A DNA stretch of 64,000 nt from positions 81,241 to 145,240 of the IMG/VR virus record IMGVR_UViG_3300028832_000098. One strand, written 5' to 3'. Positions 650 through 42,708 of this stretch are shown in pieces. Positions within the stretch are counted from its first letter, which is position 1; the number at the start of each line of letters is the position of its first letter. The notes beneath the pieces were generated by a model. That model searched no databases. It saw nothing but the letters and a program-made list of their open reading frames with translations, and was not told the origin of the DNA. A program made the position numbers and the translations under genes. This DNA is from a virus. Its lineage: Duplodnaviria; Heunggongvirae; Uroviricota; Caudoviricetes.

Positions 650-1846
650 GTGAAAACGATTTATAAGACATATAAGTTTAGAATGTATCCAAATACGGAA
701 CAAGTAGAGTTGTTAGGTAAGTATTTTGGATGCACTCGCTTCGTCTATAATTATTTTCTCAACGAACGTATGGAGCAATATAAAGCTACACAAAAGTCTG
801 ATAATTACTATGACCAAGCTAAGAAACTAACTCTATTAAAGAAGCATGAAGAATTTGTCTGGTTAAATGAGATTAACAGTCAAACCTTACAACATAGTTT
901 GAGACATCTTGAATCTGCATATCTTAACTTCTTTAGAGGAAATGCGAAGTTTCCAAGATTCAAATCAAGGAAAGACAGAAACTCTTTTGTAGTGCCACAA
1001 TTTTGTTCTGTTGTTGGCAATTCTATATCATTACCAAAATTCAAGTCTAATATAAAAATAAAGAAACATCAAGAAATATCAGGGAATGTACGTTCTATGA
1101 CAGTATCTAAAGATTGCGATGGAAAATATTATGTTGCTATTCTTACAGAACAGTTATATGAACCAATACAAAAATCTAATAAATCTGTCGGAATTGATTT
1201 AGGATTAAAAGACTTTGTTATTACGTCAGATGGAAAAGTTTACAAAAATCATAGATATACAAAGAAATATGAAAGAAAATTAAGTAAAGCACAGAGGCAT
1301 CTTTCTCGTAAGCAAAAAGACAGCCGTTCTTTTGAAAACCAAAGAAGAAAAGTTGTCAAGATTCATAAGAAAATTTCAAATTCAAGAAATGATGTATTAC
1401 ACAAGGTATCAACAGAACTTGTCAGAAACTATGACATAATCTGTTGTGAGAACCTTAACGTAAAAGGAATGATTAAGAACCATAAACTTGCAAAGCATAT
1501 TGCTGATGTCAGTTGGGGAACATTCGTAAACTATCTTGAATACAAGTGTGAAAGGGAAGACAAGACTTTAGTGAAGATTAACAGATATTTTCCAAGCTCA
1601 CAGACTTGTAGTGACTGTGGATATATCAATCAATCTATCAAAGACTTGGGTGTACGAGAATGGACTTGTCCTAAATGTGGTAAACACCACAATAGGGACT
1701 TAAATGCTGCTATCAATATCCTTAGAGAAGGATTAACAACTCTATCGGCAGGGACTGTCGATTACACAGGTGGAGACGATGTAAGACTTGCTTGCAAGCA
1801 ATTGTCTGCGAAGCCTGAAGCCCACAAATCTTTAGTTTGTGAGTAG
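650..1846 (+). CDS. tnpB: TnpB / IS200-IS605 OrfB family RNA-guided nuclease (RuvC-like domain plus zinc finger)
   Basis: 398 aa. RuvC-I GIDLGLKDF, RuvC-II IICCENLN, zinc finger CSDCG...CPKCG, RuvC-III HHNRDLNAAINI. The 3' end overlaps convergently by 15 nt with 1832..2551, and its ωRNA would be expected across 1700-2000. Confidence 0.9.
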   Translation: MKTIYKTYKFRMYPNTEQVELLGKYFGCTRFVYNYFLNERMEQYKATQKSDNYYDQAKKLTLLKKHEEFVWLNEINSQTLQHSLRHLESAYLNFFRGNAKFPRFKSRKDRNSFVVPQFCSVVGNSISLPKFKSNIKIKKHQEISGNVRSMTVSKDCDGKYYVAILTEQLYEPIQKSNKSVGIDLGLKDFVITSDGKVYKNHRYTKKYERKLSKAQRHLSRKQKDSRSFENQRRKVVKIHKKISNSRNDVLHKVSTELVRNYDIICCENLNVKGMIKNHKLAKHIADVSWGTFVNYLEYKCEREDKTLVKINRYFPSSQTCSDCGYINQSIKDLGVREWTCPKCGKHHNRDLNAAINILREGLTTLSAGTVDYTGGDDVRLACKQLSAKPEAHKSLVCE

Positions 1847-36233: not shown

Positions 36234-37937
36234 TTAAACTGCAGGTTCACCGCCTTCTGGAGCGCCGCCTGCTTCAGGAGCTCCGCCGCTTATGTCCATG
36301 CTGCCTCCCATATCGCCTCCGCCGCCCATGTCCATGCCGCCTCCCATATCCATTCCTCCGCCACCCATATCGCCACCTCCCATATCCATTCCACCACCGC
36401 CCATATCACCTCCCATAGAAGGTTGTTGCTCAGTAGCAGCCTTTTCTGCTTCTTCTTTACGTTTCTTAGCTTTCTCCTTCTTAATCCTCTCATTTTCTTC
36501 AAGCTCTGCAGGCGTGAACAACGAGAATTTCTTCATTAAGAAGTCAGGGTCGAAATATGGTGTTTGGTTTCCTTGTTCGTCAGTTACCTGTATCGAATTA
36601 AGAATACCTGAAATAGCATTGATATTCTGCTGTATGATTGTAAGCTTCTTAATTTGAAGATAGACTGAGTCTGACTGGTATACGAGGTGCAAAGATGCAA
36701 GGAAAGAAATGTCATCCTTTATTTCGTTGTCAAGACAAATCTGAATATAGATAGGCTTGATAAAAAGCATCTGGTAAATATTCCGAAGCCTTGCTATAAA
36801 CCTGCTGAACCTGATTTCTTCCCTATGTATTCCTTCGACGTTCATCGTATATTGGGCGCCAGCCTGTCTGTCAAACCTTGCAAGAGGTACTTTCGTTATA
36901 TCGTGGAACTTATCGGCGAAATACGTCAACGGCTGTATATTCGACAAGTCTGGTCCACCGTTATTGCTCAAGACCGAAACTTCAGGCTTGCTGCCTTCAG
37001 TCATGGCGAAGAACATCTGCTTATAGAACGGCAACATCGGATGTCCGTTGGTCTTTATCTCGCCTGTCGACCAGTTGAAGTCAACTTGCTCAGCCTGGTC
37101 TGCTGCAACTTGCGCGAGTCGTTGCTTTCCCTTTTGTGGCGACACCGCTCCGACAGGTACGACATAATTCATTTTCAAAGAGGAGTTGACGACAGAGAAT
37201 ATAATTCTCGTCGATTCCATAATCCTCAATGTATTGAATGAACGTATAAGCCTTGAAACATAGCTGAGGTCGTTATCTTCATCTGAATAAGATATGATAA
37301 CAATCTCTTGCTCAGTCAACGTAAGGTTTATGACATTCCCCGTCGTTAAGTCATTAGTGCTGACCTTATACAGTATCTTGCCGTCTTTGTCACATATCTT
37401 TTCGACATTCGCTGGGTCAAGCTCTACAAAGTCAATTATGTTTTTCTGTTTTTCGTCATATATTATACGGTATGCAAGCTTACCATCGACAATCCATCTC
37501 CTGAAAAGCCTCCAGACATCATCTGTATTCATAAGACCGTAGAGATACCTGAACTTCATAAAGTATTCAGGCAGTTTCTCCTTCACTTTTTCAGAAATCT
37601 TGTCAGCCGTTGATTCTATATATGCGAAATCACGGTCTTGCTCTGTCGAACAAATACTCTCGTCACAAACAATATCAAGTATTTTGTCTATGTCGTCTTC
37701 TGCGGCGTATTTCCTACAAGTCTCCCTCTGTACTGAATAACTTGCAGGCTGCGAGCCTCCAATGCCTTCAGCGCGGTGCCAGCTGTTCTGCGGAACAGAT
37801 ATTACCTGCGAAAGCGATGTCATATTGTCAGGCGAATAGGCCCTACCGGTAAACCTGACATTCGCGAGCTTCTTACGCAATGTCACTTGGCCTCCGTACA
37901 TTCCGGTACCTATACCTCTGTTAATAAATCCTGCCAT
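36234..37937 (-). CDS. Portal protein (T4 gp20-like) with a C-terminal Gly/Met/Asp low-complexity tail
   Basis: [23 protein letters not shown] matches gp20 [44 protein letters not shown] matches gp20 [24 protein letters not shown]. C-terminus ([11 protein letters not shown])n. Confidence 0.7.
   Translation of the reverse strand: [567 protein letters not shown]
36300..36425. repeat. Coding tandem repeats (ccatatcca[ct]tcc[tg]ccgcc[ac]cc units) encoding the GGGMDMGGG tail of the portal
   Basis: Visible 12-15 bp periodicity. Confidence 0.7.
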
Positions 37938-37952
37938 CCTCTAAAATGATAA

Positions 37953-38463: not shown

Positions 38464-39057
38464 TTATTTTTCGAGTTCGATTACCTTCATGTTATTCGTA
38501 TTGATGTACGGATTTCTCTCATCGGCATTTACATGTATGACAGTATGCTTTCTCTGGAACAGGCATAACGGCCAAATCCGTTTTGGATAGATTGTTTCCT
38601 TCTTGCCGTACCATACTATATACAGTTCGCTTTTCGCCGAAACCTCAGTCTGAAAATATCCAGCATCTCCGTTTATACAGAGCTTATACCACTCGTCGCC
38701 TATGCACGTATCTATGACACAGCTTTCCAAGCCGCTTATGTATATGGTGTCTCGCTTGACGAAACCGGCATCCCTGTAAACTATTTTCTCTATCGTCTTA
38801 ATCTTTATGCCGTTATTTTTCGCCATCGCCTTGATGCTGTCATACAATGACTGCTCGCTGTTCTTCAGTTCGCTTATGGTATAATTCAGGGCTATTGTCT
38901 CGTCCTTTAACGAATCATACTGCGACAATATTCCCTTGATATTCACTGCAAGCCTTTCGGATTCATTCCTATAATTAAAGTATCCGAAAAAACTTATTGC
39001 GAATGCCACGAAAAGCGCGGCTACCATTACCCTTAAAATAAAAAGTCGAGTCTGCAT
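38464..39057 (-). CDS. hypothetical membrane-anchored protein
   Basis: N-terminal TM LFILRVMVAALFVAFAISFFGYF. Confidence 0.4.
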   Translation of the reverse strand: MQTRLFILRVMVAALFVAFAISFFGYFNYRNESERLAVNIKGILSQYDSLKDETIALNYTISELKNSEQSLYDSIKAMAKNNGIKIKTIEKIVYRDAGFVKRDTIYISGLESCVIDTCIGDEWYKLCINGDAGYFQTEVSAKSELYIVWYGKKETIYPKRIWPLCLFQRKHTVIHVNADERNPYINTNNMKVIELEK

Positions 39058-39157
39058 AATATCAGTTTCTTTTATTTATGTCATTTCTGTGAACTACCTA
39101 CAAACTAAAGAATTCTATGTTCTAAATCCTATTAAAATTATTATCAATTATACGAAT

Positions 39158-40417
39158 TTATTTATAAAGTTTAGGAAGTCCGTATAGATTCTTAAACTTT
39201 ACAGGCTGGAACAACCAGCCTCTATTGACTATCTCACCTATGTAAGACTCGTCAACTACTTTTCTCATGATGTTCAGTGCTCCGTTGACATCTGCATTCA
39301 GCACTTTTCCTACGGACGACTTGAACAGTCCACGTTTGATGCGCTTCCCTAAATATGCTGCGTGTTTGCATATTTCCTCAAAAGAAAGAGCATCACACTT
39401 GCTCGTGTAACTTTCCTCATTTGTCTTGAAGACTATGCCAACTTTTTCACATTTGTACCGAAGATAATTCAGAAACCTTCTATAAGGAATGTAAACAAAA
39501 GTCTGGTTATTCTTGTGTCCAAGCTCAATGGAGTCCTTCCATTGTTCGTTGTAACCTACAACTAAGTTTCCGATTCCTTGTTTTACTAAATTATCTACAA
39601 TATGTTTACTTACCTTGTGAAATAAATCCTGTAATTTCTTATCCCTCCTTTCGTATAGTTTCGTTATCTTTCTGCTTGTATTTTTGTCTTGACTTTTCTT
39701 TACTGCCGATTTAAGTCTGGACAACTCCTTGTTGAATCCTTGGTTTATTGATTTAATCTGACATCCCGAATAAATAATCGGTTTAGTAAAGTCATTCACT
39801 AAAGTTACGAAATTAGCTACTCCTAAGTCAATTGAAGCATATCTTTCAGAATCTAATTTCAAATGAGTGTCTTGTACAGTATAAACTATCTCGCATTCAA
39901 GAACCTCCGCACGTCTCTTTGGATTTATACGTACTTGATTAAAGCTTTTCAAAAGCTCTCCATATTTTTCATATTGTGGTATATTTATGTAAGTGTTTTT
40001 GTCAAAGTACACTCTTCCGTTTTTAATAGAACAACTTTGATTTGGAAAAGTTATTTGACGGTACAACCCACGATTCCATTCAGGTGGTTGTGGAACTCCT
40101 TTGAATTTGTTAGGTTGTAATTTATACTCCTTCAACGCACTAAAATATCCCTTGTAATTCTTCTCCACTTGCATCAAGTTCTGCTGGGCAACCTGTGCTT
40201 TCAGTAACCTGTAGTTTATATCACCGTTAAGATTGACTTTTGTCTTTAGGATTTCATTGAGTCTCTTATAAGACAAAAATCCTTCACCTTTTATAAAAGA
40301 TTGTCTTTCTTCATAGATTGCCTGATTGTATAAACATTTGGAAACGGAGCACAACTGTACAAGTTTACGTCTTGTCTCAGCATTAGTATGTACTATGAAT
40401 TTATAAACGTATCGCAT
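39158..40417 (-). CDS. tnpB: TnpB / IS200-IS605 OrfB family RNA-guided nuclease (second, divergent copy; tnpB-only element)
   Basis: 419 aa. RuvC-I SIDLGVANF, RuvC-III LNADVNGALNIMRK. The canonical CxxC...CxxC zinc finger is not evident (SKCDALSFEEICKH). No tnpA remnant seen nearby. Confidence 0.85.
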   Translation of the reverse strand: MRYVYKFIVHTNAETRRKLVQLCSVSKCLYNQAIYEERQSFIKGEGFLSYKRLNEILKTKVNLNGDINYRLLKAQVAQQNLMQVEKNYKGYFSALKEYKLQPNKFKGVPQPPEWNRGLYRQITFPNQSCSIKNGRVYFDKNTYINIPQYEKYGELLKSFNQVRINPKRRAEVLECEIVYTVQDTHLKLDSERYASIDLGVANFVTLVNDFTKPIIYSGCQIKSINQGFNKELSRLKSAVKKSQDKNTSRKITKLYERRDKKLQDLFHKVSKHIVDNLVKQGIGNLVVGYNEQWKDSIELGHKNNQTFVYIPYRRFLNYLRYKCEKVGIVFKTNEESYTSKCDALSFEEICKHAAYLGKRIKRGLFKSSVGKVLNADVNGALNIMRKVVDESYIGEIVNRGWLFQPVKFKNLYGLPKLYK

Positions 40418-40586
40418 ATACTAACTTATCTCGTTTTCCAAAATCTTCTTTTAATATCTTTAATACATCTTTACTTTTCATATCTGCAAATACATAGTTT
40501 GTATTTAGAAAAGTCAAATGTTTTTACAAAAATTTATTATTTTCTATATCATATAGAAAACAACAATTTACGGTATACTTCCGATT

Positions 40587-41444
40587 TTAGCAGCATGCTA
40601 TCCAGTTTCTATAAGCTGTCGTCAAATGATTTCTGCTGGGTGCGTCGTCTCCGGCGTGAGGTATGCAGTATGTATTCGCAAACATCCTGATAAGTACTGT
40701 CACGCCTTTGTTAACGTATCCAAAAGTATAGCCGCCGAGTAACTGGCAATCTATCTTGTCACTCTCGACGGCTGCCTTATTTCCTTGTGTATATGTGCTG
40801 ATTACGTTTCGTCTTACTTCGAGCCGATTTTTTTTTTGGCCGTACTTGATGTACCTTACTACGGTGCTTTTTGCCATGCCTGATTCCGACGCAAGCTTGT
40901 TAAGCGTTATGCCGGTATCCTTATATTCTTTGCTGTCAACGCCGTATGCCTTCAGTCTCGAATCAATTTTTTTGAGGGTCTTTATATCTTTTACTTGTTC
41001 TCGCTGTTGTAGTAAGTCTTTGATGTGTTGCTTCTTGCGTATGGGATTCGTGATGATGAAATATGATAGTTCCTTTTCTACGAGTGTCAGTGTCAGTTCA
41101 TTGTCTTTCAAGTCTTCGCAAATCTTAAAGCATCTGTCGTCGTGTTTGCTGCTTACGCTGTGTATCAATAGTTTGTCGCCTGTGTCTTCGATGTATCCTT
41201 TCGTTATGCAGTTGTCAGTCCATTTCCTTGCGGCGTTGTAAGATGATTGAATGATTGTCGATATTTTCTTGTAGTTCCTTCCCGAGACGTTGTATTTGTT
41301 CGAATTCTTTTTTCCTTGTTTTCCTTTGTACGATGTATATGGTATCGAGGTATATCCTTTCTTGACAAGTATAGATACGAGAGCTATGCACATTCTCTCA
41401 GTTCTGTCTTTCAGTAAGTTAATATTGCTGTTTCTAATTTTCAT
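40587..41444 (-). CDS. hypothetical DNA-binding protein (C-terminal HTH)
   Basis: HTH-like TLNKLASESGMAKSTVVRYIKYGQ; 285 aa; adjacent to the origin-like region and tnpB. Confidence 0.4.
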   Translation of the reverse strand: MKIRNSNINLLKDRTERMCIALVSILVKKGYTSIPYTSYKGKQGKKNSNKYNVSGRNYKKISTIIQSSYNAARKWTDNCITKGYIEDTGDKLLIHSVSSKHDDRCFKICEDLKDNELTLTLVEKELSYFIITNPIRKKQHIKDLLQQREQVKDIKTLKKIDSRLKAYGVDSKEYKDTGITLNKLASESGMAKSTVVRYIKYGQKKNRLEVRRNVISTYTQGNKAAVESDKIDCQLLGGYTFGYVNKGVTVLIRMFANTYCIPHAGDDAPSRNHLTTAYRNWIACC

Positions 41445-42198
41445 TCGTTAGAATTAAATTCTCTAAGTGCAAATAAAAGCCAAAAAAATTTAAGTTGTAT
41501 GCTTTCTATCAAAAAAAAATCCCTGTTTTTCAACAGGGACCCAGAGAATTCGTTACCCAAGAGCTTGGGTTCCAATGAAAATTACAGTTACAAATATAGT
41601 ATTATTTTTTTAAGTTGTACACGTTTTCCTAAAAAATTTTATATTTTTCTGAAATTTTTTCCAATTTTATTTTTTCATATCTGATTTTTATCTATTTTTG
41701 TCCTTTTCCCCAATTCTGAAAACCGTAGTGATTTCACGAATGAAACTCTATTATATACCAGGAAATAATACTAAGAAATACTTAAAGAATTCTTAATTTT
41801 CTTTGGCTTGGGCACGTGTATGACGTGCCCGAACGCATTATGCACGTAAGTGCGTTGTGCGTTCGCCTGTGTTTATGCACGTATATCCGTGTAACGTCCG
41901 TGTCCGCGTGTGACGTACGTCATGTATGCCATATATGCACGTGTGTCATATACGTGGGTGATGTACGTCCGCGGTCGCGTCTGTGTCGTCGTGTGATGTA
42001 TATACAGATGCGAATTCAATAATTAGTCATTGGAGGATGTCTTCTGACTGACTGTTTGCCTGAAGGCTTAACACTTTTTATTTCAATTTCTTACAAAAGC
42101 CTTAGTAGGTAAACATCAGATGTTGTTAATAATTCTGTTGGAAACGTTGTTTTTTATATGTTGGTTTAAACATAAATAGAAAAAGAAAATTTGTTGGG
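41445..42198. promoter_or_regulatory. Strand-switch intergenic region: candidate replication origin and divergent promoter region
   Basis: AT-rich tract with T-runs (41580-41800). Perfect hairpins at 41520..41537, 41554..41569 and 41810..41830. Locally GC-rich 200-bp block (41810-42010) with three TTATGCACG / ATATGCACG 9-mers, which are 7/9 to the DnaA box TTATCCACA (41838, 41873, 41933). Palindrome TGACGTACGTCA at 41911. Genes diverge on both sides. Confidence 0.5.
41510..41537 (-). terminator. Perfect intrinsic terminator on the minus strand (CCCTGTT-GAAA-AACAGGG plus T9)
   Basis: 7-bp GC-containing stem, tetraloop and 9 T on the minus strand; no annotated minus-strand gene upstream of it. 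Confidence 0.5.
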
Positions 42199-42708
42199 AT
42201 GAAGTTAGAAAAGATGACGAAAGAAGAGCTCATCGATGAAGTGATTTCATTGAGGAGCAACCTGGAAAAGAAAAAGACTCTTATTAAAAGGATGAAGCGC
42301 TCTATGAAAGAGCAGTCAGCGAAGACGATAGTGCGGCAGATGTACGGCGGGGATTATGCCGACGTAGTTTTCACGGCGACAGAAAGGATACTCGGAATAT
42401 CAAGGGACAAATTTCTATGCGGCCTCAGGTCGGCGCAGTTCGTCCGCTGCAAGACCATTGCCGGATATATTCTCAGGGAAACCTCGAGTATGACGCTGTA
42501 CGAGTGCAGCGACGCCCTCAGGGTAGACCATTCAAGTGTCTGCTATTATTCAAGGGTAGTACGCCAGGCATACGACATGTACGACAAGGACAAGGTCAGC
42601 CGCACCCTCATCGATGAGATTGAGATGGTGAAGAAGGAGGTTGCGAAGATTCTTCGGGACAGAGGAAATCCGGAAACCATAAATAAGGTAGGAATAAAAA
42701 TATCTTAG
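42199..42708 (+). CDS. DnaA domain IV-like (Bac_DnaA_C) helix-turn-helix protein
   Basis: RSAQFVRCKTIAGYILRETSSMTLYECSDALRVDHSSVCYYSRVV versus DnaA-C R..VRARQIAMYLIRELT..SLPEIG..FGGRDHTTVIHA.RKI. Confidence 0.6.
   Translation: MKLEKMTKEELIDEVISLRSNLEKKKTLIKRMKRSMKEQSAKTIVRQMYGGDYADVVFTATERILGISRDKFLCGLRSAQFVRCKTIAGYILRETSSMTLYECSDALRVDHSSVCYYSRVVRQAYDMYDKDKVSRTLIDEIEMVKKEVAKILRDRGNPETINKVGIKIS

What the first reader, a model, noticed from the sequence alone, without database searches (positions are those of the whole stretch)
39058..40590. Second, unrelated TnpB (tnpB-only element) lacking the canonical zinc finger, inserted between structural genes and the origin region
The 419-aa TnpB has RuvC-I (IDLGV) and RuvC-III (NADVNGALNI) motifs, but the usual CxxC...CxxC finger is replaced by SKCDALSFEEICKH. 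Its last codons contain TATAAATA (AAACTTTATAAATAA), so its 3' region/ωRNA may double as a late promoter for 38464..39057. Two different TnpB lineages in one phage recall the many homing endonucleases of T4 and suggest RNA-guided nucleases used in inter-phage competition.
Basis: partly seen in the sequence, partly recalled or inferred. Interest (0 to 1): 0.55.

Follow-up and report, generated by a model that had tools for sequence, protein, structure and literature searches.

The report
Guide-RNA nuclease transposon remnant in phage
This is a 1.4-kb remnant of an IS607-type jumping gene in a large phage genome; it has lost its transposase but keeps an RNA-guided nuclease (TnpB) and a guide RNA that exactly matches the uninterrupted site in a sister phage, so it is a known kind of element that probably copies itself into co-infecting relatives.

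Summary
Window 39158-40417 (-) encodes a 419-aa TnpB. It is unrelated in lineage to a canonical TnpB at 650-1846 and has no CxxC...CxxC zinc finger.

The interpretation needs correcting.
- The element (39117-40550, 1434 bp) is an IS607-family insertion whose serine-recombinase tnpA was removed by a ~540-bp internal deletion.
- Zinc-finger loss is not private. All 144 relatives in which the RuvC-II to RuvC-III segment could be located lack it, and the loss is described in published TnpB surveys.
An invariant EE (334/335) replaces it, matching the known "rearranged RuvC-II" class.

A 148-nt structured RNA (39117-39264) ends exactly at the right end, with strong covariation. It has no Rfam match.

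A ~98%-identical sister phage has the empty site, ...TATAT|AGAATTC.... A single AT there appears at both junctions here, and the 20 nt after the right end match that empty site perfectly. Other sister phages carry a 72%-identical paralogue two genes away, and their alleles at this site are diverged or deleted.

dN/dS is about 0.09.

The TATAAATA at the stop codon is private to this copy and is not needed by the downstream gene.

Verdict: a new member of a known kind, and a good natural test case for RNA-guided homing between phages.

The parts
39117..40550 (-). Whole inserted element: an IS607-family element with tnpA deleted, 1434 bp counting one copy of the AT core dinucleotide.
   Evidence: Comparison with the empty site in sister phage L169. 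Empty...TTTTTTATAT|AGAATTC.... Occupied...TTTTCTATAT[GATATAG...GAACAT]AGAATTC.... The flanks are 98.7% and 97.5% identical, with a 2-nt AT overlap.
40551..40555 (-). Left-flank motif TATAT. It is the candidate TAM and TnpA target motif, and its last two bases (AT) are the inferred crossover dinucleotide.
   Evidence: TATAT precedes the target in the empty alleles of both insertion sites in this phage lineage. A TAT-like triplet (TAC in one) sits at the left junction of 27 of the 30 related loci with full tnpA (23 distinct insertions read, 22 TAT and 1 TAC). Its function as a TAM is inferred by analogy with CboTnpB.
40482..40550 (-). Left end (LE): non-coding region upstream of the tnpA start.
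   Evidence: Window 40448-40553, which spans this left end and the first tnpA codons, is 91.5% identical to L006 9320-9425, the region upstream of an intact tnpA.
40401..40481 (-). tnpA remnant, a 26-codon ORF (MKSKDVLKILK + EDFGKRDKLVYAIRL*). The deletion junction is near 40447/40448, at a TAAAAG microhomology.
   Evidence: Alignment to the 5' and 3' ends of the intact L006 tnpA. About 540 bp are missing.
39158..40417 (-). tnpB CDS, 419 aa. Key codons: D197 (39827-39829); G288 at the canonical RuvC-II position (39554-39556); E334/E335 (39413-39418); C341; D376 (39290-39292).
   Evidence: dN/dS is 0.08-0.11 against three phage-borne relatives.
39117..39264 (-). omegaRNA-like scaffold (148 nt) with four stem-loops. 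It overlaps the last 35 codons and the stop codon (107 nt of the CDS) and ends at the right end ...UUUAGAACAU. The 5' end is not determined.
   Evidence: MFE z-score -5.3 for the 224-nt stretch 39117-39340 that contains it. In alignment A5, 89.5% of cells are paired against 36-54% for slid controls. The covariance model finds one hit in the window at 158.9 bits and 69 hits across the 81 loci searched; all but one (a second copy in L066) lie at the tnpB 3' end. 34 of 37 pairs show compensatory changes. There is no Rfam match.
39097..39116 (-). Predicted guide, AGAAUUCUUUAGUUUGUAGG (length inferred as 16-20 nt). It is the flank immediately 3' of the right end.
   Evidence: Homology among element copies stops at 39117. 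The sequence is identical to the empty site of L169/L170 next to TATAT. It is unique in the window.
39159..39166 (-). TATAAATA over the last tnpB codons and stop. It matches the late-promoter consensus but is not conserved among element copies.
39073..39080 (-). CATAAATA box 15 nt upstream of the ATG of the 197-aa gene. It is probably that gene's own late-promoter element and is retained downstream of the insertion.
   Evidence: It is conserved at the same position in sister phages without the insertion, and reads TATAAATA in L179.

Best explanation
The feature is a non-autonomous IS607-family insertion, with its serine-recombinase tnpA deleted, in a ~236-kb phage that has a T4-like portal.

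Proposed mechanism:
1. Transcription through tnpB yields the TnpB protein and a ~150-nt omegaRNA. The scaffold of this RNA overlaps the 3' end of the gene and stops at the right end. Its 3' extension (~20 nt) is the flanking phage DNA.
2. The TnpB-omegaRNA complex recognises DNA that carries the motif TATAT directly followed by that 20-nt sequence. This is the uninterrupted allele found in sister phages.
3. The complex cuts that allele with a RuvC site built from D197, a relocated glutamate (E334/E335) and D376.
4. Repair from the element-bearing genome copies the element in. This is homing, or retention if a TnpA supplied in trans excises the element.
5. The element's own right junction (ACAT instead of ATAT) is spared.

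Shown here: family membership, element limits, the tnpA deletion, the conserved RNA structure, the empty site with a perfect guide match, and purifying selection.

Inferred: nuclease activity, TAM identity, guide length, and homing itself.
For: - TnpB family matches are above curated cutoffs. The fold is closest to Cas12f, ISFba1 TnpB and ISDra2 TnpB.
- A relative with 87% identical TnpB has an intact Resolvase-type tnpA abutting tnpB. 30 of 93 close loci have a full tnpA.
- The window has the left end, the first 11 tnpA codons and the tnpA 3' end, with ~540 bp missing.
- The right-end boundary is conserved across ~90 loci with many different flanks.
- RNA covariation is strong and there is a single covariance-model hit in the window.
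- Sister phages L169/L170 have the empty site. AT occurs once there and at both junctions here. The guide matches 20 of 20 bases next to TATAT.
- dN/dS is 0.08-0.11, and dS is lower where the RNA overlaps the gene.
- D197, E334, E335 and D376 are invariant.
- Published precedent: IS607-type TnpB and TnpA share a target motif and core dinucleotide, the right end differs at position -3 to avoid self-cleavage, and restorative homing has been demonstrated (PMC10690162; PMC13565253).
Against: - No expression or cleavage data exist for this element.
- No member of this zinc-finger-less clade turned up as a solved structure, and I found no biochemical test of it in the papers read.
- The former zinc-finger segment (residues 336-359) is modelled with pLDDT below 50.
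- The TAM is inferred from two insertion sites and from the conserved TAT at left junctions. That TAT could instead belong to the element in other family members.
- The other sister-phage alleles at this site no longer match the guide, so only one observed allele is a predicted target.
- Canonical IS607 features (GG ends, G-rich TAM, RAGATH-18 RNA) are not met.
Confidence: 0.72

Rival explanations
1. Decaying relic. After losing tnpA, the zinc finger and the canonical RuvC-II glutamate, the protein is an inactive passenger and the RNA conservation only reflects recent common descent.
For: tnpA is deleted. There is no CxxC and the TNB-domain score is weak. The canonical Glu is absent. The segment that replaced the zinc finger is poorly modelled.
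Against: The ORF is intact and dN/dS is 0.08-0.11 even between copies that lack tnpA. Zinc-finger loss and the relocated Glu are shared by the whole clade, which includes members with intact tnpA and many independent insertions. The alternative Glu class is active in Fanzors and is predicted to be active in TnpB. RNA pairs are kept through compensatory changes across proteins of 45-100% identity.
Confidence: 0.1
2. Weapon rather than drive. The nuclease mainly destroys co-infecting competitor genomes (interference competition), with little or no copying of the element.
For: The guide matches the sister-phage genome exactly. Both nearby target regions are hypervariable among otherwise 97-98% identical phages, as expected if the targets are under selection to escape.
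Against: The flanks are ~98% identical over kilobases, which makes recombinational repair from the donor easy. The published behaviour of TnpB is homing or retention. Intergenic hypervariability can arise without selection.
Confidence: 0.1
3. Regulatory co-option. The element persists because it supplies a late promoter (TATAAATA at the stop codon), or a guide-RNA-directed repressor, for the downstream 197-aa gene.
For: TATAAATA is enriched in the window (18 against 7.5 expected) and lies upstream of many structural genes. The motif sits 102 nt upstream of the 197-aa gene's ATG. Nuclease-dead TnpB relatives that act as transcription factors are known.
Against: The motif is absent from the closest element copies, which have TATGAATA or TACAAATA. 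The downstream gene retains its own box 15 nt before the ATG, and sister phages without the element carry only that box upstream of the gene. The catalytic residues are conserved, unlike in TldR.
Confidence: 0.05

Closest known systems
IS607-family elements with TnpB, such as the Clostridium botulinum IStron CboTnpAS/CboTnpB and ISXfa1
   Same: A serine-recombinase tnpA sits directly upstream of tnpB in relatives. There are no terminal inverted repeats. One dinucleotide is shared by the empty site and both junctions. The omegaRNA overlaps the tnpB 3' end and its scaffold ends in that dinucleotide. The right end differs from the target motif at position -3. tnpA is lost frequently.
   Different: The core dinucleotide is AT and the target motif is TATAT, instead of GG and TGGG/AGGAG/GAGGG. 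The right end is ...AACAT, not ...GG. The RNA does not match RAGATH-18 or any other Rfam family. The TnpB lacks the zinc finger. The NCBIfam IS607_TnpB model gives no hit at E<=0.001.
TnpB clades with a rearranged RuvC-II (RIIr-5 of Altae-Tran et al. 2023; 'E_alt' TnpBs and Fanzors of Yoon et al. 2023)
   Same: The canonical glutamate is replaced (Gly288 here). An alternative glutamate lies six to seven residues before the first Cys of the zinc-finger position. RuvC-III reads NADxN. The clade is associated with serine recombinases.
   Different: Fanzors and the E_alt TnpBs defined by Yoon et al. keep CxxC...CxxC, whereas here only the first Cys (C341) is invariant. RuvC-I is D-L-G, not the D-P-G of Fanzors. 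I could not place the protein in the published tree.
ISDra2 TnpB (IS200/IS605), the reference RNA-guided TnpB
   Same: The overall fold is shared (Foldseek E 1.7e-15, TM 0.64-0.73). The guide comes from the right-end flank, the TAM lies 5' of the target, and the RNA overlaps the gene's 3' end.
   Different: Sequence identity is about 15%. ISDra2 has a Y1 transposase partner with single-stranded transposition, a canonical RuvC-II Glu, a C4 zinc finger and the TAM TTGAT.
Free-standing homing endonuclease genes of T4-like phages (seg, mob)
   Same: They sit in intergenic positions between conserved genes. They show presence/absence polymorphism among near-identical phages, have paralogues at neighbouring sites, and are predicted to cut the allele that lacks them.
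   Different: Here recognition is by a guide RNA plus a short motif rather than by protein. Self-avoidance comes from the insertion splitting the motif from the target, not from sequence differences in a nearby gene. This is a resemblance in behaviour only.

Membership tests
TnpB (OMEGA RNA-guided endonuclease) | Sequence match to curated family models | tested here: met
   Pfam PF01385 at 83.4 bits (cutoff 30.5) and PF07282 at 42.5 bits (cutoff 26.3). NCBIfam NF040570 at 157 bits (cutoff 100).
TnpB (OMEGA RNA-guided endonuclease) | Split RuvC triad D-E-D | tested here: met
   D197 and D376 are invariant. The canonical Glu is absent, but an invariant E334/E335 lies in the published alternative position. 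The spatial arrangement was not measured.
TnpB (OMEGA RNA-guided endonuclease) | Structured RNA overlapping the gene's 3' end, ending at the right end and followed by a flank-derived guide | tested here: met
   and the boundary analysis.
TnpB (OMEGA RNA-guided endonuclease) | C4 zinc finger between RuvC-II and RuvC-III | tested here: not met
   No CxxC is present in this protein or in any of the 144 relatives in which this segment could be located. Published surveys state that the finger is lost in some large branches, so it is not defining for the whole family.
TnpB (OMEGA RNA-guided endonuclease) | TAM-dependent, RNA-guided DNA cleavage | not testable with these tools
   This needs biochemistry or an interference assay.
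IS607 family | Serine-recombinase TnpA encoded upstream of tnpB | tested here: not met
   In the window only a 26-codon remnant is left. The feature is met in relatives: L006 has an intact Resolvase gene, and 30 of 93 close loci have a full tnpA.
IS607 family | Insertion by crossover at a dinucleotide present once in the empty site and at both junctions, with no inverted repeats and no longer duplication | tested here: met
   The empty and occupied alleles share a 2-nt AT overlap.
IS607 family | Ends in GG, inserts at GG, G-rich TAM | tested here: not met
   The end is ...AACAT and the target is TATAT. The canonical features are as described in PMC13565253 and PMC10690162.
IS607 family | RAGATH-18-type omegaRNA | tested here: not met
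   There is no Rfam hit at gathering score, or at E<=10, in 38950-39450.
RuvC-II-rearranged TnpB (RIIr-5 / E_alt) | Canonical Glu replaced by Gly, with an alternative Glu after the next beta-strand | tested here: met
   G288 is invariant. The Glu of TnpB1 (in CCENL) aligns to G288/Y289. E334 fits the pattern E-x6-C. In the model, strand 329-333 precedes the EE pair.
T4-type late promoter (TATAAATA) | Motif placed upstream of a late gene and conserved where functional | tested here: inconclusive
   The motif is enriched in the window. This particular copy is not conserved in related elements, and the downstream gene has its own box.

The most novel reading that the evidence does not exclude
This element would represent an uncharacterised AT-core subgroup of IS607-like elements. 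Its zinc-finger-less, relocated-glutamate TnpB would use a TATAT-type TAM and a guide RNA family that has not been curated. It would act as an RNA-guided homing or exclusion system between co-infecting large phages. Two paralogous elements at sites 1.2 kb apart, together with diverged or deleted target alleles in sister phages, would then record an ongoing drive-and-escape contest.
Probability: 0.4. Interest if true: 0.65.

Novelty: new member of a known kind. Interest (0 to 1): 0.45.

Why it matters
TnpB is thought to spread by cutting element-free alleles. This has been shown for chromosomes and plasmids. For phages, the only statement I found in the held literature is theoretical (PMC13565253).

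This locus offers a complete natural test set within one phage lineage:
- an occupied allele;
- a perfectly matching empty allele;
- two non-matching empty alleles;
- a paralogous element at a neighbouring site.

It also points to a compact (419-aa) nuclease without a zinc finger, with a probable AT-rich TAM and a defined ~150-nt guide scaffold. That could interest genome-editing work.

None of this changes the classification. It is a TnpB/IS607-type element of a clade already covered by published surveys.

Tried and rejected
- Near-identical DNA in the phage collection: none.
- Relatives of the two flanking genes in IMG/VR: none.
- Exact empty-site or shared-junction strings in IMG/VR and JGI metagenomes: none. 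The empty site was instead found through the protein cluster of the 197-aa neighbour.
- Rfam at gathering score and at E<=10: only noise.
- PDB sequence search with the single protein: nothing. With a profile, only distant Cas12f and ISDra2 matches.
- Host inference from the Bacteroidota -7 promoter motif TAnnTTTG: not enriched, 71 found against 67 expected. This was dropped, although several tnpA upstream regions in relatives show TAnnTTTG just before the ATG.
- Sigma-70 promoter and terminator scan of the element: no better than shuffles.
- Terminal direct or inverted repeats as TnpA sites: nothing convincing, apart from a 19-nt imperfect palindrome across the left junction.
- A flank-encoded target duplication or a common dinucleotide outside TAT...CAT: no consistent pattern among the 23 distinct insertions read. 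For right ends in ...AACGT, the AT/GT mismatch remains unexplained.
- Polymorphism of the first TnpB: the three contigs found all carry it.
- Placing the protein in the published TnpB tree, and measuring active-site distances in the model, were not possible with these tools.
Full report
**What is in the sequence**

The window holds a 419-aa ORF at 39158..40417 on the minus strand. It matches:
- Pfam OrfB_IS605 at 1.8e-23;
- Cas12f1-like_TNB, more weakly, at 7.4e-11 and 42.5 bits;
- NCBIfam guided_TnpB at 157 bits against a cutoff of 100.

A second TnpB lies at 650..1846 (+). It is a canonical IS200/IS605-type protein (453 bits to IS200_TnpB, with an HTH domain and CxxC...CxxC). It is only 23% identical to this one over 239 aa.

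The host replicon is a phage with a T4-like portal at 36234..37937. The source contig is a 235,706-bp ENA metagenome assembly. No near-identical DNA exists in the annotated phage collection.

**The protein and its clade**

A database search returned more than 7,400 homologues at E<=1e-10.

In an alignment of 32 homologues at 48-87% identity, D197 (IDLG), E334, E335 and D376 (NADVNG) are invariant. Only one cysteine (C341) of the former zinc finger is invariant.

I located the RuvC-II to RuvC-III segment in 144 TnpB genes from viral contigs and from bacterial and archaeal genomes. These include Prevotella/Hallella, Phocaeicola, Bacilli, Anoxybacillus, cyanobacteria, Chloroflexi, Helicobacter and Asgard archaea. 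None has a CxxC motif. All share EESYTSKC[DS]xLxxE...GKRxKRGLFxS...NADxNGAxNI. That set was retrieved with the pattern EE[SA]YTSKC, so it shows how broad the finger-less clade is, not how frequent it is among all TnpBs.

The canonical RuvC-II glutamate is also missing. The Glu of the window's first TnpB (in CCENL) aligns to G288/Y289 by both BLAST and profile comparison. G288 is invariant. E334 fits the published 'alternative glutamate' signature, E-x6-C (PMC10711439). The Glu-to-Gly replacement with a compensating Glu is described for the large RIIr-5 clade (PMC10691335). [quoted passage not shown]

So zinc-finger loss is real, but it is neither private to this copy nor new.

An AlphaFold model from the 32-sequence alignment has mean pLDDT 82.7. 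Residues 336-359, the segment that replaces the finger, score below 50. Its best PDB neighbours are Cas12f, ISFba1 TnpB, ISDra2 TnpB and Fanzor2, with TM 0.57-0.73. No close relative has a solved structure by sequence search.

**The element**

The closest homologues (86-87% identity) sit in other large phage-like contigs, at different positions. In L006, an intact 201-aa Resolvase-type gene abuts tnpB.

BLASTN shows that the window keeps three pieces of this arrangement: the left end, the first 11 tnpA codons and the tnpA 3' end. About 540 bp in between are missing. The junction lies at a TAAAAG microhomology and leaves a 26-codon ORF at 40401-40481.

Among 93 close loci, 30 have a full-length tnpA overlapping the tnpB start. 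The family is therefore IS607-type with frequent tnpA loss.

Homology between copies stops at ...TTTAGAACAT, window position 39117. Across about 90 loci the end is AAC[AG]T (GGCAT or AGCAT in a few), followed by many unrelated flanks. These are many independent insertions.

**The RNA**

- The 224 nt upstream of the right end fold with z = -5.3.
- RNAalifold on 28 diverse copies found two stems with compensatory changes. One of these stems covers the codons G-W-L-F-Q-P. This explains why W...Q, R...R and L...N co-vary in the protein alignment.
- Single-sequence folds show the same four-hairpin layout in 29 representatives despite sequence turnover.
- On a 10-sequence alignment, a 37-pair structure has 89.5% of cells paired against 36-54% for slid controls, and 18 pairs with double changes.
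- A covariance model finds one hit in the window, at 39117-39264 with 158.9 bits. It finds 69 hits across the 81 loci searched; apart from a second copy in L066, they lie at the tnpB 3' end and stop at or within about 10 nt of the right end mapped earlier, for the loci where an end had been mapped.
- On that model-fitted alignment, 34 of 37 pairs show compensatory changes. The covariation score is 0.508 against at most 0.12 for slid controls. The alignment leans towards the model, so these numbers are upper estimates.
- Synonymous divergence is lower in the overlapped codons, 0.28-0.69 against 0.87-1.07.
- Rfam has no match, including RAGATH-18, the RNA of characterised IS607 TnpBs.

**The empty site**

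The 197-aa downstream protein has near-identical copies in other contigs.

In L169 (238,631 bp) and L170, the 285-aa and 197-aa genes are adjacent with no TnpB between them. Flank identity to the window is 98.7% on the left and 97.5% on the right. A 2-nt AT aligns to both junctions.
- Empty: ...GTTGTTTTTTATAT|AGAATTCTTTAGTTTGTAGG....
- Occupied...GTTGTTTTCTATAT[GATATAG...TTTAGAACAT]AGAATTCTTTAGTTTGTAGG....

This is the signature expected of a serine recombinase crossing over at a dinucleotide, here AT rather than the GG of characterised IS607 elements. The 20 nt after the right end therefore match the empty allele exactly, directly 3' of TATAT.

The conserved TAT at left junctions and the invariant C at position -3 of the right end mirror the Clostridium botulinum IStron. 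There, TnpA and TnpB both read TGGG, and the right end TCGG escapes self-cleavage because position -3 is discriminated. That TATAT (or ATAT) is the TAM is an inference from this parallel.

**More alleles in the same phage lineage**

Contigs L174-L178 carry a 72%-identical 419-aa paralogue (P0007). It sits two genes away, between the 165-aa gene and the portal. Its right end reads ...GGACAT|TGTAAAATCAATTAGAGG. The corresponding empty alleles read ATATAT|TGTAA.... The window's own copy of that site (37938-37952) is empty.

At the window's insertion site, L174-L178 are empty, but they diverge from the guide immediately after TATAT. L179 lacks both elements and has the target deleted.

None of the observed empty alleles at the second site matches that element's flank beyond 5-8 nt.

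This pattern is what target escape would produce. Ordinary intergenic variability is not excluded.

**Selection and function**

dN/dS is 0.076-0.092 between the window copy and three phage-borne relatives, two of which also lack a functional tnpA. This argues against a dead relic.

The most likely mechanism is the published TnpB one. An RNA-guided cut of the element-free allele is followed by recombinational copying. That is restorative homing if a TnpA acts in trans, or plain homing into co-infecting relatives. A recent review treats the phage case as theoretical. I found no experimental demonstration in the held literature.

**The promoter idea**

TATAAATA occurs 18 times against 7.5 expected, and 0 of 100 shuffles reach 18. 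Several copies lie 17-81 nt upstream of minus-strand structural genes, so T4-type late promoters are plausible in this phage.

The copy at the tnpB stop codon, however, results from a Lys codon where the closest elements have Glu (TATGAATA), and the paralogue has TACAAATA. The 197-aa gene keeps CATAAATA 15 nt before its ATG. That box reads TATAAATA in L179 and is present in all sister phages. A promoter role for the tnpB terminus is therefore unnecessary and unsupported, though it is not excluded.

**Verdict**

The feature is a new member of a known kind: a TnpB with its omegaRNA in an IS607-type element. It has variant traits: an AT core, a probable TATAT TAM, no zinc finger, a relocated glutamate and an RNA not in Rfam. 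The clade's protein traits are already in published surveys.

Its main value is as a ready-made natural system for testing RNA-guided homing between phages.

Noticed in passing
window 650-1846 (+), with TATAAATA at 624-631: The first TnpB is a canonical IS200/IS605-type protein with an HTH domain and a C4 finger. A perfect TATAAATA lies 19 nt upstream of its start codon, which may place it under late transcription. The covariance model for the second element's RNA does not hit near it, so the two systems use different guide scaffolds.
   Followed up: partly
window 6801, 10617, 18245, 23256, 24768, 28528, 35728 (all minus strand) and 47109 (+): TATAAATA is enriched in the window (18 found against 7.5 expected) and sits 17-81 nt upstream of many gene starts. 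This suggests T4-like late promoters in this phage.
   Followed up: partly
L174 4105-5539 (also L176-L178); the corresponding empty site is window 37938-37952: Sister phages carry a paralogous TnpB element (72% aa identity) inside the 15-nt gap between the 165-aa gene and the portal gene. Its left end is not homologous to the window element's left end. The bases TGTAA occur on both sides of it.
   Followed up: partly
L169 5930-6000, L174 2892-3000, L179 2936-3000 (upstream of the 197-aa gene); L169 7085-7135, L179 4085-4135: The two short intergenic regions targeted by the two elements are hypervariable (indels, a replacement and a deletion) among phages that are otherwise 97-98% identical. 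The variation begins right after the TATAT motif.
   Followed up: partly
L002 7809-9954: In another phage contig, the 87%-identical TnpB lacks its left end. It is preceded by an IS605-type pair (Y1 transposase and a canonical TnpB on the opposite strand) plus a 128-aa ORF, so mobile elements are nested or adjacent there. A 32-nt copy of the right-end terminus also occurs at L002 5102-5133.
   Followed up: no
L066 1474-1624: There is a second strong hit of the omegaRNA model (91.5 bits) about 2.5 kb upstream of the main element in the same locus. It could be another copy or a solo right end.
   Followed up: no
L048 4290-4313: The terminal 12 nt of the right end (TTTTCATAACAT) are tandemly duplicated.
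   Followed up: no
window 40531-40569: A 19-nt imperfect palindrome (84% complementary) is centred on the left junction. The flank TTGTTGTTTTCTATAT mirrors the left end ATATAGAAAATAATAA. It might be a recombinase dimer site, or chance in AT-rich DNA.
   Followed up: no
L006 61-4069: Upstream of the related element lies a run of about 28 consecutive same-strand ORFs of 39-52 aa, closely packed or overlapping by a few bases. This is an unusual array of mini-genes.
   Followed up: no
window 42199-42708 (+) and about 41500-42200: A 169-aa protein gives a DnaA_C-like HTH match that is below the Pfam threshold (23.6 bits against 31.5). It sits at the point where gene orientation and GC skew switch. 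L006 carries a 175-aa protein with the same domain near its TnpB element. The 'origin' label is plausible but untested.
   Followed up: no
right ends of L089, L030, L043, L076 and similar loci: One subgroup ends in ...AACGT while its left junction still reads TAT, so the two junction dinucleotides (AT and GT) do not match. Non-matching dinucleotides were seen experimentally for CboTnpAS, but the cause here is unknown.
   Followed up: no
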